DNA of 64,000 nucleotides from Octopus vulgaris (Eukaryota), in the NCBI GenBank assembly GCA_951406725.2, contig OX597819.1, forward strand, positions 26,226,001 through 26,290,000, read 5' to 3'. Numbering within the stretch: the stretch's first letter is position 1; every line of letters begins with the position of its first letter. This document shows, piece by piece, positions 25,246 through 64,000 of the stretch. The notes beneath the pieces were generated by a model. That model did no database searches and had not been told where the DNA came from. It saw only the letters and a program-made list of their open reading frames with translations. Both the position numbers and the translations under genes were made by a program.

Positions 25246-26540
25246 CAGGATGGGGAAGAGGGTACGGACGTTTTTGAAAAATTCACACAATTATTAATTT
25301 TAGGTGCAAACAAATTTTACTAACAACAATGTGTTCGTACTGAATTAGCATTTCTCAAAATCAAGTGTGAGAAACGACATCCATTATGTGGGGTCTGTTT
25401 TTATTGATGCCTTTCTGAAGGCATTGTTGGAGGTTGGCCTCCACTCTCTCCAACATTGTTCTATGGATTTGGGTGACCTGCACGCGAATAGCTGCCTTCA
25501 GATCGTCCAATGAACGGGGCTGCTGCGCATACGCACGTGCTTTGAGGCTTCTCCACAAGAAATAATCACACATGGACAAATCAGGGGACCGAGGAGTCCA
25601 AGGAATGTTAGCAAATCTTGAACGAGGCGGTCACCGAAGAGAAAGCGAAAAACATCTATTGATGCTCTGGCTGTGTTTGACCGTTGCTGCATCCTGTTGA
25701 AACCACACACGTCGAACAGGCATACGTTTTCGTCGTAATTCAGGCACATATAATTTGTTTATCATCTCGATGTAACGCTCGGAGTTCACAGTAACAACAT
25801 TTCCATTATTGTCTTAAAAAAAATGTACGGACCAATGCTGCAGCTTTTCCAAGAGCACACTTTTAGGCAGTGCAATGGTCTTTTGGGATTTTCAAGAGCC
25901 CAATAAATACAGTTCTGTTGATTCACCATGCCATTTAGACGAAAATGCGCTTCCTCACACATTAACAAAATGAGGTTGTCTTTTGCCTGAAAAACTGCTT
26001 CTGCCTGACGTGCAAACTTAAACCGTTGTGCATAGTCCCATGGTTTCAACTGTTGCCCAATGACTAATTTGTACGGGTGGAATGCAGCTCTTTATGCAAA
26101 CTACGCCTTACCGATCGATTACCGATGCCAAGTTCAGTGGAATGCCTCCGAATAGAGCGATTCGGAGTCCGTATTAAAGCTTGTCTGACGTGCCCCACAT
26201 TTCTGGAGTCCGTACCATTCCTGGCGCCCCACCGTACTCCTATTCATTAATGTACCTCATGTACGAAGTGCATTCACCAAACGTAAGATATTGCTTCGGG
26301 TGGAAACAGCTTGATTTCAGTGAATGCTGAAGTGGCGCAGAGACTCAAGCTGAACTGCTGTGACAGATACGTTACTTTTCACGTAACTGACGTAGGCAAA
26401 CACGTGGTGCTCTCTCCTCCACAACATCATAGTATCATCTCAAAAGAAAAACAAAGGCTAAGATACCATGGATGGAATGGTACCTGCCGGACATATGTCC
26501 CTTCCCATTTCAAAATCGTCCGTATTTCTGCCCCACCCTG
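25246..26540 (-). mobile_element. Tc1/mariner DD41D (rosa-like) transposon with pseudogenised transposase
   Basis: TA-flanked imperfect TIRs CAGGATGGGGAAGAGGGTACGGACG and CGTCCGTATTTCTGCCCCACCCTG; motifs EEAHFRLNGMVNQQNC and WTPRSPDLSMCDYFLW; about 41 residues between the 2nd and 3rd D after frameshift repair. Confidence 0.85.
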
Positions 26541-27528
26541 TATAATCAGACATAGTCATTTACACCAGTGTATTATACACACAGGCTTATATGTAGAAAT
26601 AAATTTAAAGAAAACTCTAAATTTATAATTGGATCAAGTGTAAATAAAATCTGTGTATATGTGATTATCTCTACACTTAAGTACATTTTTGTTATGATTA
26701 AGTTACTCAGATATGTAGATAGTGCGCGCTTGCGTGTGATCTTTCTACTTTATAGTTACTGGCATTTTTTTCCATAATAGGGTAGCAGGTCCCCCAGGAA
26801 AAAACAATTTCACCATCATTAAAGCTTGGATATCAGGACAGATAATTGTAACATATCGAACTAGAATATTTTAACTTCTCCAGTTCCTGAATGTATCACT
26901 AAAATTCGTGTGAACCGGTTTCTTTCTTTGCTTGAAAACCTAGCTTCTATAGATTGTAGCTTAGACATTTACGACGTATAGGACTGCAATATTAATCGCT
27001 GTAGTCTCATATTTGTTTTGCATTGTAACATTACAGATTGGGCCTGATCGATCACAGCTATGATAAAAAGATTGTCAATTCGAGTTAGTCTTGTATTTTC
27101 TGTTTATTGTAGTGGATTGAGGATTATATGATCCAAGACAAGCTTGTCAATTATTTTTATATAAGTAAAAAATAATGCTAGTGAGATTTAGCTGGTCGGG
27201 CTTGCAAGTCAAAACCTATCATGTCACTTAAACATCTTAACGTATCACCCAAGTGATAAGAAATATTTATGAAATGTAATAGATTCCGTAAAACATCTTA
27301 CGTGAACAAACATGACATTGAATATAATTAATATAATTTTACACCATGGACTGAGTAGCTAAATTTTCCATTCAAATATTTATATTTTTCCTTGATATTT
27401 CTATTAAACGAAGCATGCCATACATAAATTTACTACACTCCATATTGAACCCAAACGTGCAGTGAGGTTAGTTTTTCAAGGACTGGGGAACAATACATAC
27501 TAATAGATTTTTCTAGATGATATTATTA

Positions 27529-27686
27529 TTAATAATTATCGCCAGGCTAACATGACAGTCCAGAAAATTAGGACGAATGCTACCGTTTATTAGCTCCAAG
27601 AGGCCATCGTCTCTAGGTAGCTATGTGACACACAAACATGTGTCCATTTTTCTGGACTGCCATGTTAGCTTGGCGATAACTATTAA
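27529..27686. repeat. Inverted repeat with ~39 bp arms (MITE-like or PLE-like)
   Basis: TTAATAATTATCGCCAGGCTAACATGACAGTCCAGAAAA and TTTTCTGGACTGCCATGTTAGCTTGGCGATAACTATTAA. Confidence 0.8.
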
Positions 27687-27949
27687 TGCCCAGTACCGCT
27701 GCCGTAGTCTCCTTTAGAGAAACTTAGAAATATTAATATTTCGATATTATTATTATTCGTGATTATAGAGAAATCCTCAATAAATTAAGAAACCGCCAGT
27801 CGATTTTTGTACATCATACGTCTGTAAAGTAAAAACAAAGCGACGATCTGGCAGAAACGTTAGAACATCCGATGACATATTCAATATTTGTTCCAGCACA
27901 GAAGTTTCAGATCAAATCACACAGTGTTTATGTACAATCACAGTGTAGG

Positions 27950-28561
27950 TTAGTTGAAATATGTTTGCCAAAGCAAATACACTGCAGTTAACCTGGAGAA
28001 AACAATCTCTCTTATGGTAAAAATGTGTGAAAACACTCGGTTCGTTCAGTGTCGCCGTCTATCGGGAATGTCAAACATCGATGTTTCGAGTTTATTCACT
28101 CTTGTCGATGAGATGCACCTAAGAGAGACAACTCTGAACGAGCTTGTAGCTTTATATATAATTCAGTCAACAAGTTGACTGACTTGCGATGGCCGAACGC
28201 CAGATCGAAATAAATATTGAAATAATGACGCAAAGCAGTGCTTACGTATAATCCAGATTTAGGTAAGTTGTAGTATATGTGTTATATATTTCAACTGTTA
28301 AAGGCAGATACACTGCAGTTACCATGGAGAAGAAACCCGACAACATGTTAACTGATTTATATATAAAGTTACAAGCTTTATTTAGTTCGTTCAGAGTTGC
28401 CTCTCTTGGGTACATCTCATCGACAAGTGTCAATAAACTAGAAACATCGATGTCTGAGATTCCCAATAGATGGTAACACTGAACGAATTGGGTGTTTTCA
28501 CAGTTTTTTTACTACAAGAGAGCTTTTTTCCTCAATGTATTTGCCTTTAGCAGTTGAAATA
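27950..28561. mobile_element. Two opposite-orientation copies of a ~270 bp element; the second (28287-28561) has ~28 bp TIRs
   Basis: TATTTCAACTGTTAAAGGCAGATACACT and AATGTATTTGCCTTTAGCAGTTGAAATA; ORFs 27954+ and 28242- translate similarly. Confidence 0.75.
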
Positions 28562-29083
28562 CGGTGTGTGTGCGTATGTGTGTGTGTGTGTGTATGTATA
28601 TATGTGTATGCATGTATGTATGTATGTGTATGCATATATGTGTATGCATGTATGTATGTGTGTGTATGTATGTTTGTGTATGTGTGTGTGTGTATGTATG
28701 TGTGTGTGTATGTATGTGTGTGTATGTATGTGTGTGCATGTATGTGTGTGTATGTGTGTGTATGTATGTATGTATTTATGTATGTATGTGTGTGTATGTA
28801 TGTATGTGTGTATGTATGTGTGTGTATGTATGTGTATGTATGTATGTGTATGTATGTGTGTGTATGTATGTGTGTATTATGTGTATGTGTGTATGTATGT
28901 GTGTATGTATGTATGTGTGTGAATGTATGTGTATGTGTGTGTATGTATGTGTGTGTATGTATGTATGTGTGTATGTATGTGTGTGTATGTGTGTAGGTGT
29001 ATGTATGTATGTGTGTGTATGTATGTGTGTGTATGCATGCATTTATGTATGTATGTGTTTATGTATGTATGCATGTATGTATA
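28562..29083. repeat. (TG)n/(TATG)n microsatellite
   Basis: Seen directly in the sequence. Confidence 0.97.
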
Positions 29084-29755
29084 TTAGAGATCAGTTGGAT
29101 GTGCATTAACTGTCAATATGGTTCATATAAAGGGAATACATCACACATTCATTTCATATAAATCCTTATCCTCCTCCAAGTATTTGTTGCTTCTGAAATG
29201 GAAAAGCGTTATTTACCCATTTGCTCTTCTAATGCAAAAGAAGCATATTAGGAATTTACTTCTTTTATTCTTTGTTTATTTATAAGCAAAGCTTGGCTTA
29301 TTTCGACGTATATCCTAAGATTATTTCAACTTCATTGTAAATGGGTTTTCGTGTGTCTTGTAGAAAGCTTAATGTATTTATTTCTGTGTGTTTCATCGCC
29401 ATCCGTTTAATGGAATTCCTCAAGTAAATCATATGTCATTTACATAATATGAGCATATTATCACAGGGATGATATTATATACGTTTGTGTAAGCATTCTG
29501 TATCTTACATGAACAGTAACCAAAGTCCCACCGCAGTGAGTTTTATATTTACAACTATGGGATGTAAACTGTTTGTTAAAAAATAACTATCATACGATAT
29601 TCTCTGTATACGCATATACATATATATATGTGTGTGTGTGTGTAAAATAATTGAGATTTAGTTGAATTAGTTACCAAGGTAGTGCGGTAAATTCCGCACA
29701 GCAACAAATTAGGTGAATAGAAAGCAAATACGTTACAAGGATGCCCAGGTATCGG

Positions 29756-29812
29756 TGCATTACGGCCGTTTCAAGTGGCTCAATTTAATCGAAAGCGCTC
29801 TCCTCGGACGCA
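29756..29812 (-). ncRNA. Hammerhead-like motif (U4C core variant)
   Basis: TGCGT-CCGAGGA-GAG..CTT-GAAAC-GGCC-GTA-ATGCA; palindromic stem III ACGGCCGT. Confidence 0.6.
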
Positions 29813-29992
29813 GCCAACCATATAGATTTCCAACATAAATACTAAACTATTTTTTAGCGCAAATTACATCGGTGCTAGCAACCAAAATAATTTGTTTTTC
29901 CTTGTTATTTGTATAACTCATTGTATAATTTGTAAAATATGATATTTATATTTATGTTTATAATCATACGACATGTTTCATAAATGTTATAA

Positions 29993-30068
<76 letters not shown>

Positions 30069-31015
30069 GTGATATTTTATACCTTCAAGTTTGTTTTAAA
30101 TATTCTTACCCGAGATGGGATTATTTAACTTATTGCCTAGACCCTAAATTCTGGTCATGGTTTAAAATAACCTATATACTCCTACTCAGAGGTCATTTAA
30201 TTGTAAATGCATGCTTGAAAGGTTTTAACATGAACACCTTAGTATTATACATAGGAAATGTCTTATGAAATTTCTCTTATATATTATAGTACCCAATTTT
30301 TAGGGTTTCAGTTTATTTATTTATCGTTTTTTTTTTGTATATGAATCTAAAATCATTTTCTAGTAGCTGAGATATACTTCTTTACCCTCAGTTTTAACTA
30401 CTACCCTTAAGTATTTGGGCCTCGTTTTGTTTTCGACTTTATGCCTCTTTTATTTGATAACCTAAATATATTTGACTACCCCTTCCTTCTTAGTTATCAC
30501 CCACGTCCCCTTCTGTCATTCTCTTACTAGCAGGTCTCTAATATGCCTCTTTATGTAGATCAAGGTAGACTTTTGGTCTCAATAAAATAAAGCCCGTAGA
30601 GAATATCTGACATTAGCAGTAACTTAACTGTCAGCTCCTAAAGGGCTTAATTCTTAAGAGTTGGAGACAGTATGTTGCAAATAATCTTAGAAATAATGAA
30701 GAATGTAAATTTAACTATCTCCCTTTTCCTCATTCTTGGCTCCCACTATTCCACTATGCCAATTTAAATCATAGTAGGCTGTAGATGTGCAGTATTTACT
30801 AAATTCATTCTGCCACAGAATTAGCAAGGCAAAACAATGTTATTATTTTTGTTGCTAGTGCCTATGTAAGTTGCGCTGAAAAAATGGTTTATTCTTTATT
30901 TTGGAAATCTGTATGGTTGGATGCATCAGAGGAGAGCGGTTTATTTCAAATTCATTTAATGTTTTTATTGATCGACTAAATGGACTGATAACTAGACATG
31001 GGTGTTACTTATTTG

Positions 31016-31561: not shown

Positions 31562-32840
31562 GAGGGGCGTTCAATAAGTAATGCCCCTGACTCACTTCCC
31601 ATAGCGGTAGAGCAACGAAACTTTGCACAGTTATTAGTCTTTCTCTACATAGTTACGCATTTCTCCCATCGTTTGATACAGCTCTGGAGACCGTTTTTTT
31701 TTTAGAAGACCCAGCTTGGTCCTCCAACCACGACGTGACTTCAGAAATCAAGGCTGCATAATCTGGGAAACGAATTCCTTTCAAAAACAACTTCATGGTT
31801 GGGAAGAGGTGAAAATCAGAGGGTGCAAGGTGAGGAGAGTAGGGGGTGGGGGAGGTGTTCAATGCCGCACGCATGTACTTCTGATCTAGCGACAAGTGAG
31901 TTGTGAACCGGAGCGTTGTCCTGCAGGAGGAGGATGTCTTTGCTGATCTTGCCCCGCCTCTTGATTTTGATAGTTTCTCTTAATTTCCTCAAAAGTGAAG
32001 CATAATACGCTCCGGTAATTGTGGTACCCTTTGCCAGGAAATCTGTTATCAATACTCCGTCCTGGTCCTAGAAGACTGTGAGCATGACCTTGCCAGCGGA
32101 GGGTTGCACCCTTGCCTTCTTTGGAGGAGGTGAGTCACGGTGCTTCCACTGCATTGACTGAGCTTTGGTCTCTGGATCATAGAGATGGACCCAGGTTTCA
32201 TCCTGTGTAATCAGTATTTTGAAAAAATTTGACTCATCTTCTTGGCACATCTCCAAATTCATCCTCGAGCACTCGACGCGTTCTTGCTTCTGGAAAGGTG
32301 TGAGCAACCTGGGAATCCATCTGGCAGACACCTTTTGCATGTGCAAATGGTCATGAATGATAGTTTCTACAGACCCGGTACTAATCTTGACCTCGTTGGC
32401 TATTTGGCGAAAAGTTATTCGTCGATCTTCCAAAATGGCAGCCTCAACTTGACGGACAGATGCCTCATCAATTGCAGAAGTGGGGCGACCAGATCTGGGA
32501 GCTGTTTCCACGGAGTTCCGACCATGTTTGAATTCATGATGTCAGCGTTTTACAAGGTCATATGATGGGGTATCATTACCCTAAGTTACTTTCATTTCAT
32601 CAAAAGTCTCCCGTGGTGTGCGTCCTTTCAAATACAAAAACCAGATCACTACTCGACACTCAACAGGCTCCATTTCACACTTGACTCAGTTAAAACACCT
32701 GTAAATCAGAAATCCCAATTAGTTCAGAGCTGCAATTCGCCACCTACTCTGTAGAGATACAAATAATTGCACACACAAAATTTCAGCTAGATCAAACAAC
32801 TGCAAGTGGGTCAGGAGCATTACTTATTGAACTCCCCTCG
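31561..32840 (-). mobile_element. Full-length mariner (DD34D-type) with TA target-site duplication
   Basis: TIRs CGAGGGGCGTTCAATAAGTAATGCCCCTGAC and GTCAGGAGCATTACTTATTGAACTCCCCTCG; 1280 bp. Confidence 0.95.
31634..32673 (-). pseudogene. Mariner transposase pseudogene
   Basis: Motifs RSGRP, WIPRLL, DETW, QDNAP, YSPHLAPSDFHLF; in-frame stops and frameshifts. Confidence 0.92.
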
Positions 32841-35416: not shown

Positions 35417-38400
35417 GATTGATTGATTGATTGATTGATTCTAGTTTCAGCTTATGAGCTGTGGCCATGCTGGGGCACCGCCATTTGGTGTTGCTACTTG
35501 GTTTCACTTCATGGAGGCTTTCTAGCAACTGCTATTTGGTGCATGAGAGAGTTCGATGCAGCTGCCCTCATCTGCCCCTCCTGCCGTGAAGTTGGTTCAT
35601 CTGGGACACCTGACAGGAAGAGATCCAGCTTCATTTTAAAGACATCTGTATCCACCCCATGCAGGTCTCTCAGGTTCTTCGGGAGGATATTGAAGAGCTG
35701 TGGGCCTCGGAAGCCCAGGCTATCACAGAATCTTGTCCTACATCTTGATGGCAGGTTTGGAGTCCTAGGCACCACGCAGTGGCGCCCAGTTCTGGCATTT
35801 GCGTAACTCTCGATGCCAAAGTTCAGGACACTTCCCTCCGGGATCTTCCAGATGTATATTATGGCATATCTTTCCCGCCTACGATCCAGGGAATATAATT
35901 TTAATCTCTTGAGTCTTTCCCAGTAGCTTACATTCTGCATAGAGGCTATCTTCTTTGTGTAGCTTCGTTGGATCGCCTCAAGTTCTGTGATCAACTTGAC
36001 ACTGGATGGTGACCATAGCTGAGAGCAATAGTCAAAGTGGCTTAGGACAAGTGTCTTCCAGAGGACCATCATGGTTTCTTGTTCTCTTGTTCTAAAGGTT
36101 CTAAGAATCCATCCAGCCAGCCGTCTACATTTCATTGTCAGTTTAGCAACATGTACATGAAAGGTCGCGTCATCACTCATGTGAATACCCAGGTCACGCA
36201 CTGATTGTGCCTCTGGGATTGCAATCCCTCCGGGTCCAGTGTATTCATTCGGTATTGCATTCAGTTTTGCATGCTGATAGTATAAAGCTTGAAACTTTCC
36301 AGCATTGAACTGCATGCTATTCTTTTCAGCCCACTTGTATATTTCGTCCAGCTCACATTGCAGGTGTTTAGTGTCCTCAGGGTTCTGTATTGCCTGTGAA
36401 ACGTTTGTATCATCTGCATAACTTGTGATCGTGGCTCTCTGCGTGGCTGAGGGCATGTCTGAGAGGGCCATTATGAACAGTAGTGGTCCCAGAACAGTGC
36501 CCTGCGGAACACCGCTCACTATTTGTGTGTTAATGGAGGTGGCCCCATTGGCTACTACCACCTGACTTCTATCCTTCAGAAAGTCATGAAGCCATTCTCC
36601 CAGTTTTCCAACTATGTTGAGATCACGCAGTTTGTGACATATCATTCCATGATCGACTTTATCAAAGGCCTTTGCAAAGTCGAGATATATCACTTCCACA
36701 TTTGAGTGGTTGAGCAGCCGTTTCAGCACCCAGTCATAGTGTTGTAGGAGCTGAGTTAAACAGCTTCTCCCTGGTCGGAAACCATGTTGGGTGTCGGGCA
36801 GCAAGTCATTCTCTTCAAGGAAGGTGATCAGCTTCCTTCTGACTATTCGTTCCATGACCTTGCTGATGTGTGAGGTCAGAGAGATAGGTCTATAGTTCTT
36901 GGCTTCCGCTCTGCTACCTCCTTTATGAATGGGGCATATTTTACCTTCCTTCAGTTTTCCTGGAAGTTTGCCAGCTGCAAGGAAGCTCTGAAAGAGGAAC
37001 TGCAGTGGTCTTGCTAGGACTCTCTTACATGCTTTTAGGAGGATTGCCGGGAATCCATCGGGGCCAGTAGCTGAGTCTGTTTTCATTTCATCTATAGCCT
37101 TGGTTACAGCGTCTTCCTTTATATCGATGTAATCTATCGTCGCCGCCTCTGATTTTATATCTGCAGTGGTAAAAAAGTCAGTTGGATTGGTGATTTGGAG
37201 ATTCCCAAGGGGTGGAGTGAAAACACTCTTGAATTGCTCATTCAGTATTTCACTTACCCTCATTGGTTTTCCTGTAAGTGTGCCATCCTTTTCGAGGAGT
37301 GGCCCTATTCTACAGTGCACTGTAGCTGTTTCTTTGGCATACCTGTAGAAAGCTCTGGGGTTAGATTTTATGTTTTCTATAGCCCAGGCTTCTTTGTCTG
37401 CTCTTTCTATTTCATGGGAGAGTTGCAGACATTTTTCGATTTCCAACAGTTTTATTTTTAGGCGGGACTTTTCACTGCTTTCAATCTGTTTGTTTAGGCG
37501 ATTTGAAAATTTCGTACGCCGTCTCATTAAAATTTTCCTCTCTCTGGGGATTTTGTTCTTGTGTACAGTGGCCTTTCTCTCTGGGACACATTTGTAGCAT
37601 ATGGCTTGCATTACAGACATGAATTGTTGAAGTTTCACGTCGATGTCTGGCGAGGAGAGACATTTAGGCCAGTTTTGTTTGAGGATCTCTTTCTCAATTT
37701 GTTTCCAGTTTGCCTTATGGTAGTTCAAGCTGGAAAGATTTTGAGGGTTTCTTGTAGGCTGAATGTTCGTGCTCTCTTTTGGCCCGTACATGGTCAGCTC
37801 TATCATGTTGTGATCCGAGAGTAGTGTCGGTGTCACTTTCACATTATGGATGAGATCCATGTCATTTGTGAAGCAGAGATCCAGTGTGTTACCTGCCCTG
37901 GTTGGTTGGAGTATTACCTGCTCCATGTACAGGGTGTTGATGAGGTTCAGGAGGGACCTCGCCTGTCCTCGTTCACATCTTGTCATTCCTGGGAGAGAAA
38001 GGCCCTCGGGCCATCTGACATTGGGCAGATTGAAGTCTCCCATAAGAAGCACACCTATGTGTTGTTCTAATGTGGTTAGAATTTCTTCTATTTTTATAAG
38101 GCAGTCTTCAAACTTGCCCACATGGCTTGGGGCATCTGGAGGGCGATATGTAGCACACACAACTACATCAAGTTGCCTAATATGTACAATTAGTGTGTCA
38201 CACACCGAGTTTGAGTATGACAAGAGGACCTGGGGTGTGAGGTCCTCACGGATGTACATAGCAACACCTCCATGACTCCTTTCTTTCCTGTCGGTCCGTA
38301 GTACAGCATACTGTGGTATGTGTAACTCCGCATCTGCTATGTCCGGTTTCAGGTGCGTTTCTGTAAGTGCTATGCATAAGGCTTGATTGCATGCAACAAA

Positions 38401-38608
38401 GTCTCTCAGGAACGGGATCTTTGTCCTGTTACTGAGTGTTTGCAGTCCTCTGATGTTCAGTAGGAGTATCGAGGTGAGGTGTACGTTGTTGCCGGCGGTG
38501 TCCATCCTGTGTCTGTTTGCTGTGGTGGTCTGGTATATAGTGGGTAGTCCCACCTGCGGGCTTGGGTTTGATGAAGCCAGGTCAGCTGCTGTACAATCTT
38601 TTGTGCCA
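35417..38608 (-). mobile_element. CR1-group LINE copy 1 with (AATC)6 tail
   Basis: Open ORF2 and 3' hairpin; lies inside an AT-rich 24 bp minisatellite present on both sides. Confidence 0.95.
35509..38505 (-). CDS. LINE ORF2 APE+RT (998 aa from MDTAGNN)
   Basis: Motifs [45 protein letters not shown]; the longer track ORF just reads on into microsatellite. Confidence 0.95.
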
Positions 38609-38832
38609 TATGAATATATTTTATATATATATGAATATATTTTATATATATATGAATATATTTTATATATATATGAATATATTTCATATATATATAAATA
38701 TATATATGTATATATATATATATATAAATATATATATACATATTTATATATATACATATTTATATATATATATATGTGTATATATATATGTATGTATATG
38801 TATATATATACATCTTTATATATATACATCTT

Positions 38833-38863
<31 letters not shown>

Positions 38864-39144
38864 CTGTGTATATGCAAATATGTATGTATATGTATATATA
38901 TATATATATACACATCCTTATATATATGTATATATATATCTGTGTATATGTAAATATGTATGTATATGTATATATATATATACACATCCTCTTATATATA
39001 TATATATATATCTGCGTATATGTATATATGTATGTATATATATATATATATATACACATATATATATATATCTGCGTATATGTATATATGTATGTATATA
39101 TATATATATACACATATATATATATATCTATATATATATATGTA

Positions 39145-44313: not shown

Positions 44314-45639
44314 ATGTTTGCATACTAAACCATTGCAATTTAAAACACTCACCAGGAATTTCGTGGCCACCAACCCATTCAATTACCATTTTCTCTCTAG
44401 TTATTTATCTCATTTCCCCATCCCTTCCTACTATATGCCTCTCTACTGACTTCCATTTCTCTAACACCCTGTATTTTCTCGGTTATCCCGCTTACTTTCA
44501 CAATCTACATATGATAGTAAAGTGTATTTAGTAGCGTTTCTGTTATTACTTATACATTTACTCTAATCCGCCTTTTTCTTGATCCACTTTAGTTGTCGCA
44601 ATATTTTCGAATTCGTTTATTTTTCTTTAAAACACGGTTTACCAAACTGTTAGCACCAACCATCTATATTTGCCATTTCAAAGTCCACCTCATTTAGTAA
44701 TGTTATCTAATTACATTTATCTAGGAATCCCCTTCCGTATTGTCACACCTACCCTAACATATCTTCCGCATACAGCGCCCCACTTACAACTTCCAACAAA
44801 TATTGCCATTCTGATAATACTTTAGTTGACACTAAAACTAAATCAATGCATTTTTGTTACGGTTAAATTGTCTCAATTAAATGTCCTACATATTTCAAAG
44901 GATATTAAACTGAAGCCGCTGTAACATTTTCAGCAGTAACAGTTAAATTTAAAGTGCCCCTTATATGTTGTCTTACCAACCGTAAACGACACAGATGAAA
45001 ATATAGAATTGGTGAGTGCTTGTGCAGAGAGAGAGAGAGAGAGAGAGGAAAATAACGAAGGAGAAAAACAATTATGCTTTATATGCTACTTGCTTTTCTC
45101 TTAAAATGTTAATACTAACAAAACTGAAAGCCACGTGAGTCAAAATATCTAAAACAAATGACCATTGAAAACTGAAATGTCAACGGTGATAGTGAGGAAC
45201 TCTTTCATTGACAGAAGCCGGAACAGCAAACTAGAACACTGCGTGTTCTTCACCAACAGTGGAAGGATAAAAAATCCAAGTTTACAAGCTGGAGATCTGA
45301 ACCCAGAATCTAGAAAGAATAATGAACTTAACTTACTTTCTCGATCAAAGGTCAGCCTTTGCTAGCTTTAATTTTTCTTGATAACTTTTCTGGAACTTCA
45401 ATTTAATTAAAATACGGAAAATGGGTTTAGTGCATAGGTCCAGTGTTAGCGCCAATTTCAAAGGACGGCATTAACTTCTAATTGCGATTTTAAAATGATA
45501 TTGTCTCAAATTTACAATATTACCATGTCTCCAGCCTTCCTTCTGGAACTCAGCTACTGTTAGTTGACTTCCACTTGAAGACACTGCAGAAGGAGAAACA
45601 GTTAAACACCTTTTGGGTTTTGCGTTTTTTTTTTGTCAC

Positions 45640-46705
45640 AGTTTCTACCCGATCCCCTTTTCCTGCCCACGCAGCCGCATTTGCCCATACCTCTCCAACA
45701 CCACCCTCCTCATCGGCACACATCATCGAACCTATCATATCACAAGTGTAGGTGACTCCTTCACCTGCACTTCTAATAACGTCACCTACTGCATCTCCTG
45801 CTCTCTATATCCTTCTCTGTACATCGGTCAAACGGGACGCCGCTTGGCTGACCGATTCGCGGATAACCTCCGAGATATCAGACTCGGCAATGACACCCAA
45901 GTCTCGCGCCAATTCTGCTTTACCGGCCACTCTTTACAACACCTGTCTGCGTGCGGATTGTCCTTGCACAGGGGCCATCCGTACTCCCGTCTTCGCTGTG
46001 AACGGGAATTAATCTTATCTCTTCGCTCCTTTGCTCCACACGAGCTCAACTCTCCTCCCCTCTTCATCTAAACCCCTCCTCTCCTTACTCTTCCTCTCAC
46101 CTATTTCCACCCACCTCTCATCTCTTGCTCTGACACCTACGTCTTCTCTTCACTCCTGCCCTCCTTCCAACCTCTCCCCTCAGCGTCACCCCCTCCAACG
46201 GTATCGCACCCTACCACCACTATACATCACATCCTACACATTCCACTCCTAGATGCACTACCCCCACCCTCACATCCTACTCCCACATACCCACCCCTAC
46301 CTCCACATTCATCCCACCCCACCCTTGATGACCCACACTCGCCTCCTCCACATCCCAACACCTCTACACCACGCATCACCCACATTATCATCCACACCTA
46401 CACATGCACACACACACGTCAAGATCACTCTCACATACACACTCACGTGAACCTTCGTTTTGGGATCATCACTAGTATTTTTATCTCCCCTTTTTCCTAG
46501 CTGACCACCTGTGTCCGACCTTCGCCATGATTGATCGGTAGCCACTAAACCTTTTATTTATTTTCTCTCTCTGCTTATTTCTGTGTTCCTTTCTGTTGAA
46601 GAGCTTAGGCCAGAAACGTAAAAGTTTTTCTCACCTCCTGAGCGTTAAAGTAATACATCTGTTTGTCGTTTACACACCCATCTTCGTCTTTTTGTAAGTT
46701 CAAAC
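45640..46705 (+). mobile_element. Penelope-like element 3' fragment: GIY-YIG endonuclease plus C-rich 3' region or pLTR
   Basis: FTCTSNNVTYCISCSLYPSLYIGQTGRRLADRF..RE.ELI..L....P..LN; degenerate hammerhead TTGAAGA..GAAACGTA at 46596-46620. Confidence 0.88.
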
Positions 46706-50109: not shown

Positions 50110-50545
50110 TCTTGCAATTCCAGTGCTTAGGTAGAAACTGTGGACCAGGAGGTCACGTAGGTGGGTTCGTTTGAAGGAAGGAAGGTGTCGGTTAGGAAAG
50201 ATGTTCGAAGTGGAGGGGTAGGACTGGAGTCGCCGGAAGGCTCAGAGAATGGTAAGTTGTAGAGGTAGAGTGGAGGGGTGGTACGCGAGGGGAAACGGGA
50301 GACGGGTGATAGCGGGGCAAGTGCCAGAGGAGAGAGCAGATACACGGTCCCCGGAAGTGCTCTGGTAAGATCGGTGTGGATAGTGGTGAGGGGATATCCA
50401 CGTAGGATGAAGTGGCGAAGCATGAGTTGAGACTTAGTCTCAAAGTCATGGTTGCCAGTGTAGAGCCTACGCAGACGGAGGAATTGGGAATAGTAGATGG
50501 ATCGCTTTGTGTATTTATGGTGGGAGGAGGAGAAGTTGAGCTAGA
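50110..50545 (-). mobile_element. Penelope-like RT C-terminal fragment
   Basis: Reads SSHHKYTKRSIYYSQFLRLRRLY..F....QLMLRHFILRGYP, the typical PLE SQFLRLRRIC..F..RGYP region. Confidence 0.85.
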
Positions 50546-60706: not shown

Positions 60707-63700
60707 GATTGATTGATTGATTGATTGATTCTAGTTTCAGCTTATGAGCTGTGGCCATGCTGGGGCACCGCCATTTGGTGTTGCTACTTGGTTTCACTTC
60801 ATGGAGGCTTTCTAGCAACTGCTATTTGGTGCATGAGAGAGTTCGATGCAGCTGCCCTCATCTGCCCCTCCTGCCGTGAAGTTGGTTCATCTGGGACACC
60901 TGACAGGAAGAGATCCAGCTTCATTTTAAAGACATCTGTATCCACCCCATGCAGGTCTCTCAGGTTCTTCGGGAGGATATTGAAGAGCTGTGGGCCTCGG
61001 AAGCCCAGGCTATCACAGAATCTTGTCCTACATCTTGATGGCAGGTTTGGAGTCCTAGGCACCACGCAGTGGCGCCCAGTTCTGGCATTTGCGTAACTCT
61101 CGATGCCAAAGTTCAGGACACTTCCCTCCAGGATCTTCCACATGTATATTATGGCATATCTTTCCCGCCTACGCTCCAGGGAATATAATTTTAATCTCTT
61201 GAGTCTTTCCCAGTAGCTTACATTCTGCATAGAGGCTATCTTCTTTGTGTAGCTTTGTTGGATCGCCTCAAGTTCTGTGATCAACTTGACACTGGATGGT
61301 GACCATAGCTGAGAGCAATAGTCAAAGTGGCTTAGGACAAGTGTCTTCCAGAGGACCATCATGGTTTCTTGTTCTCTTGTTCTAAAGGTTCTAAGAATCC
61401 ATCCAGCCAGCCGTCTACATTTCATTGTCAGTTTAGCAACATGTACATGAAAGGTCGCGTCATCACTCATGTGAATACCCAGGTCACGCACTGATTGTGC
61501 CTCTGGGATTGCAATCCCTCCGGGTCCAGTGTATTCATTGGGTATTGCATTCAGTTTTACATGCTGATAGTATAAAGCTTGAAACTTTCCAGCATTGAAC
61601 TGCATGCTATTCTTTTCAGCCCACTTGTATATTTCGTCCAGCTCACATTGCAGGTGTTTAGTGTCCTCAGGGTTCTGTATTGCCTGTGAGACTTTTGTAT
61701 CATCTGCATAACTTGTGATCGTGGCTCTCTGCGTGGCTGAGGGCATGTCTGAGAGGGCCATTATGAACAGTAGTGGTCCCAGAACAGTGCCCTGCGGAAC
61801 ACCGCTCACTATTTGTGTGTTAATGGAGGTGGCCCCATTGGCTACTACCACCTGACTTCTATCCTTCAGAAAGTCATGAAGCCATTCTCCCAGTTTTCCA
61901 ACTATGTTGAGATCACGCAGTTTGTGACATATCATTCCATGATCGACTTTATCAAAGGCCTTTGCAAAGTCGAGATATATCACTTCCACATTTGAGTGGT
62001 TGAGCAGCCGTTTCAGCACCCAGTCATAGTGTTGTAGGAGCTGAGTTAAACAGCTTCTCCCTGGTCGGAAACCATGTTGGGTGTCGGGCAGCAAGTCATT
62101 CTCTTCAAGGAAGGTGATCAGCTTCCTTCTGACTATTCGTTCCATGACCTTGCTGATGTGTGAGGTCAGAGAGATAGGTCTATAGTTCTTGGCTTCCGCT
62201 CTGCTACCTCCTTTATGAATGGGGCATATTTTACCTTCCTTCAGTTTTCCTGGAAGTTTGCCAGCTGCAAGGAAGCTCTGAAAGAGGAACTGCAGTGGTC
62301 TTGCTAGGACTCTCTTACATGCTTTTAGGAGGATTGCCGGGAATCCATCGGGGCCAGTAGCTGAGTCTGTTTTCATTTCATCTATAGCCTTGGTTACATC
62401 GTCTTCCTTTATATCGATGTAATCTATCGTCGCCGCCTCTGATTTTATATCTGCAGTGGTAAAAAAGTCAGTTGGATTGGTGATTTGGAGATGCCCAAGG
62501 GGTGGAGTGAAAACACTCTTGAATTGCTCATTCAGTATTTCACTTACCCTCATTGGTTTTCCTGTAAGTGTGCCATCCTTTTCAAGGAGTGGCCCTATTC
62601 TACAGTGCACTGTAGCTGTTTCTTTGGCATACCTGTAGAAAGCTCTGGGGTTAGATTTTATGTTTTCTATAGCCCAGGCTTCTTTGTCTGCTCTTTCTTT
62701 TTCATGGGAGAGTTGCAGACATTTTTCGATTTCCAACAGTTTTATTTTTAGGCGGGACTTTTCACTGCTTTCAATCTGTTTGTTTAGGCGATTTGAAAAT
62801 TTCGTACGCCGTCTCATTAAAATTTTCCTCTCTCTGGGGATTTTGTTCTTGTGTACAGTGGCCTTTCTCTCTGGGACACATTTGTAGCATATGGCTTGCA
62901 TTACAGACATGAATTGTTGAAGTTTCACGTCGATGTCTGGCGAGGAGAGACATTTAGGCCAGTTTTGTTTGAGGATCTCTTTCTCAATTTGTTTCCAGTT
63001 TGCCTTATGGTAGTTCAAGCTGGAAAGATTTTGAGGGTTTCTTGTAGGCTGAATGTTCGTGCTCTCTTTTGGCCCGTACATGGTCAGCTCTATCATGTTG
63101 TGATCCGAGAGTAGTGTCGGTGTCACTTTCACATTATGGATGAGATCCATGTCATTTGTGAAGCAGAGATCCAGTGTGTTACCTGCCCTGGTTGGTTGGA
63201 GTATTACCTGCTCCATGTACAGGGTGTTGATGAGGTTCAGGAGGGACCTCGCCTGTCCTCGTTCACATCTTGTCATTCCTGGGAGAGAAAGGCCCTCGGG
63301 CCATCTGACATTGGGCAGATTGAAGTCTCCCATAAGAAGCACACCTATGTGTTGTTCTAATGTGGTTAGAATTTCTTCTATTTTTATAAGGCAGTCTTCA
63401 AACTTGCCCACATGGCTTGGGGCATCTGGAGGGCGATATGTAGCACACACAACTACATCAAGTTGCCTAATATGTACAATTAGTGTGTCACACACCGAGT
63501 TTGAGTATGACAAGAGGACCTGGGGTGTGAGGTCCTCACGGATGTACATAGCAACACCTCCATGACTCCTTTCTTTCCTGTCGGTCCGTAGTACAGCATA
63601 CTGTGGTATGTGTAACTCCGCATCTGCTATGTCCGGTTTCAGGTGCGTTTCTGTAAGTGCTATGCATAAGGCTTGATTGCATGCAACAAAGTCTCTCAGG

Positions 63701-63858
63701 AACGGGATCTTTGTCCTGTTACTGAGTGTTTGCAGTCCTCTGATGTTCAGTAGGAGTATCGAGGTGAGGTGTACGTTGTTGCCGGCGGTGTCCATCCTGT
63801 GTCTGTTTGCTGTGGTGGTCTGGTATATAGTGGGTAGTCCCACCTGCGGGCTTGGGTT

Positions 63859-63861
<3 letters not shown>
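60707..63861 (-). mobile_element. CR1-group LINE copy 2 with (AATC)6 tail
   Basis: Near-identical to 35417-38608; (TA)n on both flanks. Confidence 0.95.
60799..63795 (-). CDS. LINE ORF2 APE+RT (998 aa from MDTAGNN)
   Basis: Same motifs as copy 1, with no stops or frameshifts. Confidence 0.95.
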   Translation of the reverse strand: MDTAGNNVHLTSILLLNIRGLQTLSNRTKIPFLRDFVACNQALCIALTETHLKPDIADAELHIPQYAVLRTDRKERSHGGVAMYIREDLTPQVLLSYSNSVCDTLIVHIRQLDVVVCATYRPPDAPSHVGKFEDCLIKIEEILTTLEQHIGVLLMGDFNLPNVRWPEGLSLPGMTRCERGQARSLLNLINTLYMEQVILQPTRAGNTLDLCFTNDMDLIHNVKVTPTLLSDHNMIELTMYGPKESTNIQPTRNPQNLSSLNYHKANWKQIEKEILKQNWPKCLSSPDIDVKLQQFMSVMQAICYKCVPERKATVHKNKIPRERKILMRRRTKFSNRLNKQIESSEKSRLKIKLLEIEKCLQLSHEKERADKEAWAIENIKSNPRAFYRYAKETATVHCRIGPLLEKDGTLTGKPMRVSEILNEQFKSVFTPPLGHLQITNPTDFFTTADIKSEAATIDYIDIKEDDVTKAIDEMKTDSATGPDGFPAILLKACKRVLARPLQFLFQSFLAAGKLPGKLKEGKICPIHKGGSRAEAKNYRPISLTSHISKVMERIVRRKLITFLEENDLLPDTQHGFRPGRSCLTQLLQHYDWVLKRLLNHSNVEVIYLDFAKAFDKVDHGMICHKLRDLNIVGKLGEWLHDFLKDRSQVVVANGATSINTQIVSGVPQGTVLGPLLFIMALSDMPSATQRATITSYADDTKVSQAIQNPEDTKHLQCELDEIYKWAEKNSMQFNAGKFQALYYQHVKLNAIPNEYTGPGGIAIPEAQSVRDLGIHMSDDATFHVHVAKLTMKCRRLAGWILRTFRTREQETMMVLWKTLVLSHFDYCSQLWSPSSVKLITELEAIQQSYTKKIASMQNVSYWERLKRLKLYSLERRRERYAIIYMWKILEGSVLNFGIESYANARTGRHCVVPRTPNLPSRCRTRFCDSLGFRGPQLFNILPKNLRDLHGVDTDVFKMKLDLFLSGVPDEPTSRQEGQMRAAASNSLMHQIAVARKPP

Positions 63862-63911
<50 letters not shown>

Positions 63912-64000
63912 CAAAATACGCAACAAGGATATCCAGAGGTAATGCTGTACGATCGTTTCATGCGACTCCATTTAATTGAACAATGCAATAATTTTCATGA

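What the first reader, a model, noticed from the sequence alone, without database searches (positions are those of the whole stretch)
27950..28561. TIR-bounded ~275 bp element carrying a U3-A8 variant hammerhead
Seen: two inverted copies. Combined they give ATCTCA-TCGACAA-GAGT gaataa ACTC-GAAAC-ATCGAT-GTC-TGAGAT, with paired stems I, II and III and a UCGACAA core. The second copy is bounded by ~28 bp TIRs. Established: core positions 3 and 8 form a Watson-Crick pair, and U3-A8 can replace C3-G8. Inference: a MITE-shaped element with a compensated non-canonical ribozyme that standard CUGANGA searches would miss. It may be a ribozyme captured by a DNA transposon, or a retrozyme with inverted ends.
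Basis: partly seen in the sequence, partly recalled or inferred. Interest (0 to 1): 0.72.

Follow-up and report, generated by a model that had tools for sequence, protein, structure and literature searches.

The report
Penelope-type retrozyme insertion, not a MITE
This is one decayed copy of a dispersed 340-base non-coding repeat that carries a hammerhead RNA motif with an already described U3-A8 base swap; its 'terminal inverted repeats' are only a flipped second copy, so it is likely a small RNA parasite copied by Penelope-like retrotransposons rather than a ribozyme inside a DNA transposon.

Summary
The two inverted copies and the hammerhead motif are real; the MITE reading is not. The family unit is a circularly permuted 340-nt monomer. 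The window holds a mirror insertion (27922-28561): a 414-nt minus arm (1.2 monomers) joined 5'-to-5' to a 229-nt plus arm. The 29-bp 'TIR' is internal monomer sequence: family sequence continues past it in 67 of 70 occurrences, and inverted pairs occur at spacings of 74-624 nt. Copies have scattered 5' ends, 3' ends in one 78-nt zone beside dinucleotide microsatellites, and mirror arms in 27 of 48 loci: the Penelope-like (PLE) footprint. Stems covary across sister families. U3-A8 is family-wide and is in print for PLE hammerheads (PMC4209133) and others (PMC3088659). Both window ribozymes are damaged. Cleavage, circular RNA and the partner PLE are not shown. The scan found the same kind of element before on other DNA (e1-10343086, e1-8834929, e1-10357596). 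Verdict: new member of a known kind (non-LTR retrozyme).

The parts
27922..28335 (-). Left arm: 414 nt, about 1.2 monomers (monomer position m293 through one full lap to about m52); terminally redundant. Left end may reach ~27897 in decayed form.
   Evidence: L001; direct repeat 27970-28000 / 28301-28331 at spacing 331 (D6)
28333..28561 (+). Right arm: 229 nt, 5'-truncated monomer (m103 to m1), 89.6% identical to the family majority (207 of 231)
28333..28335 (.). Inversion joint; the two arms meet 5'-to-5' with a 3-nt overlap
28414..28460 (+). Type I hammerhead motif, core U3-C4-G5-A6-C7-A8-A9 at 28420-28426, stem II damaged, palindromic stem III, predicted cut after 28454
28068..28114 (-). 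Type I hammerhead motif, same core, stem II intact, stem I mismatch, U at position 17 (28074)
28385..28489 (+). Long hairpin that carries the hammerhead (extension of stem I); -41.8 kcal/mol, z -4.9 for 28385-28500
28287..28315 (-).
28533..28561 (+).
28562..29085 (+). TG/TA microsatellite abutting the right arm, the usual 3' neighbour of this family

Best explanation
This is an old, damaged mirror-image insertion of a 340-nt non-coding repeat with a U3-A8 type I hammerhead motif, likely a non-LTR retrozyme that was reverse-transcribed in trans by a Penelope-like element from a circular or multimeric RNA. Shown: monomer length and circular permutation, copies longer than one unit, scattered 5' ends, clustered 3' ends at microsatellites, 5'-to-5' inversions, covarying stems. 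Inferred: a PLE GIY-YIG endonuclease nicks TA-rich DNA; the RT starts inside the RNA at a short or a long site about 35-40 nt apart; priming on both target strands gives two truncated arms facing away from each other, which creates inverted repeats of any length. Predicted: the palindromic stem III lets two hammerheads cleave as a dimer and release unit-length RNA. The U4C subfamily, to which both window arms belong, likely cleaves weakly yet still spread.
For: 48 distinct loci (60 fetched duplicates dropped): 35 of 74 segments over 80 nt exceed one monomer; 61 of 74 3' ends fall in m1-78 (12 at m78, 7 at m41) while 5' ends are spread over the whole unit. 27 of 48 loci are 5'-to-5' mirrors, none tail-to-tail; 13 of 17 scorable mirrors pair a long with a short end; 48 of 64 3' ends lie within 30 nt of a dinucleotide run against 17 of 74 5' ends and 348 of 1920 random spots. 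PMC8557442 (passages) describes partial tandems, an inverted 5'-truncated copy, a 30-40 bp tail and microsatellite bias for PLEs; PMC11167929 (parts 1-2 of 4) shows internal RT initiation at two sites, AT-rich targets, and insertion unaffected by hammerhead mutants. Majority monomer folds as a circle at -118.5 kcal/mol against -64.8 +/- 5.7 in 60 shuffles. Stems: 91% of 403 cells paired, 8 of 13 pairs with two-sided change. Two large PLE families with long open RT-EN frames are in the genome. At L045 a family segment is fused directly to a 5'-truncated PLE RT fragment, with no family remainder in the next ~6 kb.
Against: No autonomous partner found: the family shows no similarity to the PLE sequences of either family tested (34 loci, 31; the two hits are separate insertions), and the active PLE has a C3-G8 core. 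The window's own mirror scores short+short, not long+short. 5' ends do not cluster at the cleavage site (2 of 74 at m224-226). No long tandem array of this family was seen (longest arm about 600 nt). RNA reads are few, on both strands, with no defined ends. Predicted minimum-energy folds of the monomer are not the three-way hammerhead. Loci were picked by similarity to two queries, which inflates the share of long copies. L045 is one case and could be a deletion joint.
Confidence: 0.84

Rival explanations
1. The copies are 5'-truncated pseudo-LTR stubs of an autonomous Penelope-like element that I did not find, not a separate non-coding circle.
For: Same insertion footprint as PLEs; PMC4209133 reports single and opposite-strand U3-A8 motifs from truncated Cercyon PLEs; one copy is fused to PLE coding DNA.
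Against: Upstream of the unit the sequence wraps into the unit's own 3' end in long copies; no shared non-family upstream sequence among 37 copies; sister families show dimers and a trimer of the bare unit; PLE coding matches in 4 of the 110 loci searched, one of them picked through its PLE.
Confidence: 0.08
2. Mirror arms arose after insertion by local hairpin-driven inverted duplication of a dispersed satellite-like repeat, and the hammerhead is a relic.
For: The unit is rich in hairpins; copies are about 10% diverged and only 5 of 34 captured motifs are fully intact.
Against: Inversions are always 5'-to-5' (27 against 0), both arms end in the same 78-nt zone, often one long and one short, beside microsatellites; the younger sister family shows the same with two sharp end sites.
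Confidence: 0.05
3. A MITE with ~28-bp TIRs that captured a hammerhead and moves by cut-and-paste.
For: A 29-bp, 90% inverted pair bounds 273 nt in this window.
Against: The word forms an inverted pair in 13 of 48 loci at spacings of 74-624 nt, only here at 273; family sequence continues beyond it in 67 of 70 occurrences; no TSD over 4 nt; copy lengths vary and exceed one unit.
Confidence: 0.02

Closest known systems
Metazoan non-LTR retrozymes (Cervera and de la Pena 2020, PMC7229834: part 2 of 6, section 14 and passages read; Li et al. bioRxiv 10.64898/2026.07.22.740005: part 1 of 5 and passages read)
   Same: Non-coding monomer of 150-450 bp with a full-size type I hammerhead (6-bp stem I, 4-bp stem II, short palindromic stem III), highly self-paired predicted circle, co-occurring with PLEs; mussel units are 350-390 bp.
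   Different: Core is U3-A8 (and U3-C4-A8 in a subfamily) instead of C3-G8; copies are mostly dispersed 0.5-1.8-mers with mirror arms rather than tandem arrays; abundant circular RNA is not shown here.
U3-A8 minimal hammerheads of Cercyon PLEs in Schistosoma mansoni (PMC4209133: parts 1-2 of 4 read, supplement file 2 searched)
   Same: Same 3-8 covariation; about 1,300 hits, mostly single, some as opposite-strand pairs 100-700 bp apart.
   Different: Those are minimal motifs in pLTRs of coding elements; here the motif has canonical helix sizes, a 10-nt palindromic stem III and no linked frame.
Natural hammerhead core variants (Perreault et al. 2011, PMC3088659: passages read)
   Same: U3-A8 seen in several natural ribozymes and known to be active; a natural U4C variant in a viroid lowers activity in vitro but keeps infectivity.
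   Different: I found no report of the two changes together in an amplified genomic family.
PLE insertion structure (Craig et al. 2021, PMC8557442: passages; Frangieh et al. 2024, PMC11167929: parts 1-2 of 4)
   Same: Inverted 5'-truncated copy, partial tandems, optional 30-40 bp tail, AT-rich or microsatellite targets.
   Different: This family encodes no protein and its driver is unidentified.

Membership tests
Type I hammerhead ribozyme | Three stems around the core, stem I open | tested here: met
   91.1% of 403 cells paired; two-sided changes in 4 of 6 stem I and 3 of 4 stem II pairs; slid controls 16-52%. Rows were hand-picked and related.
Type I hammerhead ribozyme | Core with a 3-8 pair, G5, A6, A9, GAAA and NUH | tested here: met
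   With the core left free, 41 of 48 hits are U3-A8 and 0 are C3-G8; position 4 is U in 25, C in 22, A in 1. Position 17 is C in 27 of 34.
Type I hammerhead ribozyme | Self-cleavage | not testable with these tools
   Needs an assay; RNA reads show no end pile-up; both window copies are damaged.
Non-LTR retrozyme | Non-coding 150-450 bp monomer with one type I hammerhead | tested here: met
   340-nt period; no frame of 100 aa or more within 27922-28441.
Non-LTR retrozyme | Head-to-tail, more-than-unit copies | tested here: met
   35 of 74 segments exceed one unit; full dimers and a trimer seen only in sister families.
Non-LTR retrozyme | Highly self-paired monomer | tested here: met
   69% paired, z -9.4 as a circle for the majority monomer (prediction).
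Non-LTR retrozyme | Expressed as linear and circular unit RNA | tested here: inconclusive
   72, 52 and 49 reads in about 12 million each, both strands, 97-100% running on into unlike sequence, no circular joint in the raw-read runs; the runs may be of a related species and may not hold small circles.
PLE-mobilised element | 5' inversion, variable 5' truncation, tail, microsatellite targets | tested here: met
PLE-mobilised element | Sequence shared with an autonomous PLE (pLTR or tail) | tested here: inconclusive
   None with the two PLE families tested; other PLE families were not surveyed.
Autonomous PLE | RT and GIY-YIG frame | tested here: not met
MITE | Constant TIRs at both termini | tested here: not met
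MITE | Uniform length | tested here: not met
   Arms of 47-597 nt
MITE | Target-site duplication | tested here: not met
   None over 4 nt at the window insertion; not scored at the other loci.
MITE | Related transposase with the same TIR | not tested
   Not searched once the TIR had failed.

The most novel reading that the evidence does not exclude
A whole clade of retrozymes in this genome switched to a U3-A8 core, and one subfamily spread with an added U4C change that weakens catalysis and locks the core onto its own stem III palindrome, so it would cleave only as a dimer or not at all; with the L045 chimera recording a Neptune-type PLE reverse transcriptase jumping from its own RNA onto the retrozyme RNA, this would be a natural test of whether ribozyme cleavage matters for retrozyme mobility and which PLE drives it.
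Probability: 0.3. Interest if true: 0.5.

Novelty: new member of a known kind. Interest (0 to 1): 0.27.

Why it matters
Modest. It adds cephalopod-type genomes to the hosts of non-LTR retrozymes (no such paper) and shows that searches with the canonical core would miss families with hundreds of copies. The PLE-like footprints support the proposed but unproven dependence of retrozymes on PLE enzymes. The U4/C4 subfamily pair gives a ready comparison for whether cleavage is needed for spread. It is also a caution: mirror insertions of permuted monomers mimic MITEs.

Tried and rejected
Rfam scan of 26000-30500 at E up to 10: no hammerhead model among 26 matches, nearly all on microsatellites. MITE reading rejected. 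U4/C4 as plain CpG decay rejected: with the core free, C4 is 22 of 48 and the opposite-strand decay product at position 5 appears in 2; C4 is linked to loop position m204 (p 2e-5) and four other sites, and needs 3 changes on the tree against 14.7 shuffled (the tree includes the scored column and its bootstrap had not settled); some U4 copies are probably decayed C4. Search for an autonomous partner: two PLE families, no similarity; a PLE next to a family copy in L190 lies 1.7 kb away and is unrelated. Pfam found nothing on the two short PLE remnants in the window. Run search: no RNA holder listed; family words in 10 listed rows from 8 studies, all under half the words. Laying DNA contigs on the window stretch gave no piece spanning the locus, so presence in other individuals is unknown. 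Look-up of earlier findings by sequence gave nothing. Paper searches: octopus + hammerhead ribozyme, retrozyme + cephalopod terms (none of the 20 listed held 'retrozyme'), hammerhead + MITE + TIR, C3U/G8A gave no description of this family; listings only. Supplements of PMC7229834 could not be read, file 1 of PMC4209133 was not searched, and those of the bioRxiv preprint are closed; any could list related families.

Full report
Observation. The region holds two inverted copies of one repeat (126-nt arms, 86% complementary; 564-nt inverted alignment). Each carries a type I hammerhead layout, at 28414-28460 (+) and 28114-28068 (-). In the plus copy two of four stem II pairs are broken; in the minus copy stem I has a mismatch and position 17 is U. 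Both cores read U3-C4-G5-A6-C7-A8-A9, so they differ from the canonical core (recalled) at positions 3, 4 and 8. A 29-bp inverted pair at 28287-28315 / 28533-28561 is present. Rfam has no hammerhead match here.

Family. The window lies in a 2.8-Gb genome of 227 contigs; earlier AI notes call it an octopus, which fits but which I did not test. Two DNA searches gave 967 and 1568 first-look candidates, 40 scored each. An exact 19-nt pattern has 62 hits with 0 for the reversed control, so the family has at least hundreds of copies at about 10% divergence (mean 90.5% identity to the majority for 58 segments). I kept 48 distinct loci of 60 fetched. Sequence downstream of the supposed TIR continues and then runs into what lies upstream of the hammerhead: the unit is a circularly permuted 340-nt monomer, seen directly as a 188-nt repeat at spacing 340 in L025.

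Anatomy of the window insertion. Mapped on the monomer, the minus arm runs from 28335 (m293) through a whole lap to about 27922 (m52), 414 nt; the plus arm runs from 28333 (m103) to 28561 (m1), 229 nt, and abuts a microsatellite. The left 'TIR' is therefore the start of the left arm, and part of it occurs a third time at 27970-28000. Across 48 loci the word is present in 45, forms an inverted pair in 13 at spacings of 74-624 nt, and is followed by more family sequence in 67 of 70 occurrences. No duplication over 4 nt flanks the insertion. The MITE reading fails.

Insertion footprint. Of 74 segments over 80 nt, 35 exceed one monomer, 61 end within m1-78 and 5' ends are scattered. 48 of 64 3' ends have a dinucleotide run within 30 nt, against 17 of 74 5' ends and 18% of random spots. 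The second query favoured full-length copies, so the share above one unit is inflated; the upper limit at m78 is not explained by that bias. These traits match PLE insertions as described in PMC8557442 (passages) and the internal two-site initiation shown in PMC11167929, which also found that hammerhead mutants do not block insertion in vitro.

Ribozyme. With the seven core letters free, 41 of 48 hits are U3-A8, 4 C3-A8, 3 U3-G8 and none C3-G8; a looser pattern gave 92 of 100 listed U3-A8 among 103 hits. Two sister families share the core with different stems: a 360-nt one (570 hits for its pattern; same architecture with two sharp 3' sites) and a roughly 330-nt one with a trimer. On 31 hand-picked rows (12 of 34 from this family, 11 of 12 loci, 3 of 33 and 5 of 15 from the sisters) 91.1% of cells pair and the covariation score is 0.456 against 0.172 shuffled; relatedness means this is not a probability. 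Stem III is a 10-nt palindrome (duplex -12.9 kcal/mol), the design linked to dimer cleavage in PMC4209133. The 105-115-nt hairpins around the window motifs are stable (z -4.9 and -3.1) but their best folds are not the active junction, and the bare motifs are not distinguishable from shuffles (z -0.5, -1.7). In C4 copies the core can pair with the stem III palindrome by a G-C where U4 copies have G-U (prediction). C4 is inherited: linked to five other sites and clustered on the tree. Only 5 of 34 captured motifs are fully intact, 1 of them C4.

Driver. The genome holds two abundant PLE families (12,749 and 18,656 first-look candidates), one with many identical copies and a 727-aa frame between 459-nt direct repeats whose pLTR has a C3-G8 minimal motif by eye. 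Neither shares sequence with this family. At L045 an inverted arm, a forward segment ending at m325 and a 5'-truncated Neptune-type RT-EN fragment (clade label from recalled motifs) are contiguous, with no family remainder downstream. That is what a template switch would leave, but it is a single case.

Expression. Three raw RNA runs gave 72, 52 and 49 reads at 82% likeness, both strands, almost all running into unlike sequence, with no start or end pile-ups: consistent with passive read-through of old copies and uninformative about circles.

Comparison. It works like a metazoan non-LTR retrozyme (PMC7229834; bioRxiv 10.64898/2026.07.22.740005) and meets the sequence-level criteria; circular RNA and cleavage are untested. 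U3-A8 was reported in nature in 2011 (PMC3088659) and in Schistosoma PLEs in 2014 (PMC4209133); a natural U4C is known from a viroid. I found no paper on this family or on the combined U3-C4-A8 core, with supplements partly unseen. My reading was recorded before the look-up; earlier notes on sister families agree and are not independent support.

Verdict. Real feature, wrong frame: an old PLE-type mirror insertion of a U3-A8 retrozyme family. New member of a known kind; interest 0.27.

Noticed in passing
window 27528-27751: The 40-bp inverted repeat just upstream (I6) is a mirror fragment of the 360-nt sister retrozyme family, without its hammerhead (80-87% identity).
   Followed up: partly
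L045:1501-3233 (G000:C10:70761959 onward); L145: Family segment fused directly to a 5'-truncated PLE RT-EN fragment, with an inverted arm on the other side; possible template switch.
   Followed up: partly
window 45568-46071 (+) and 50127-50540 (-): Remnants of a GIY-YIG PLE family that is very abundant in the genome; an 826-aa open frame at L091:2211-4688.
   Followed up: partly
L190:4700-8522 (G000:C1:194226699-194230521): Apparently active PLE: 727-aa frame between 459-nt direct repeats at 99%, dozens of copies identical over 157 aa, many in mirror pairs; C3-G8 minimal hammerhead-like motif in the repeat.
   Followed up: partly
L137, L138, L143; G000:C2:133277397: Further type I hammerhead motifs with canonical C3-G8 cores and other stems occur near or among these families.
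   Followed up: no
L180, L189: A further U3-A8 family with different stems I and II but the same 10-nt stem III palindrome; L180 has a repeat at about 331 nt spacing.
   Followed up: no
window 5737-8868, 35509-38991, 60799-63957 (all -): Open LINE frames (endonuclease + RT) of over 1000 aa; the last two are nearly identical proteins, suggesting recent activity.
   Followed up: no
window 31653-32541 (-): Broken mariner/Tc1-type transposase remnant.
   Followed up: no
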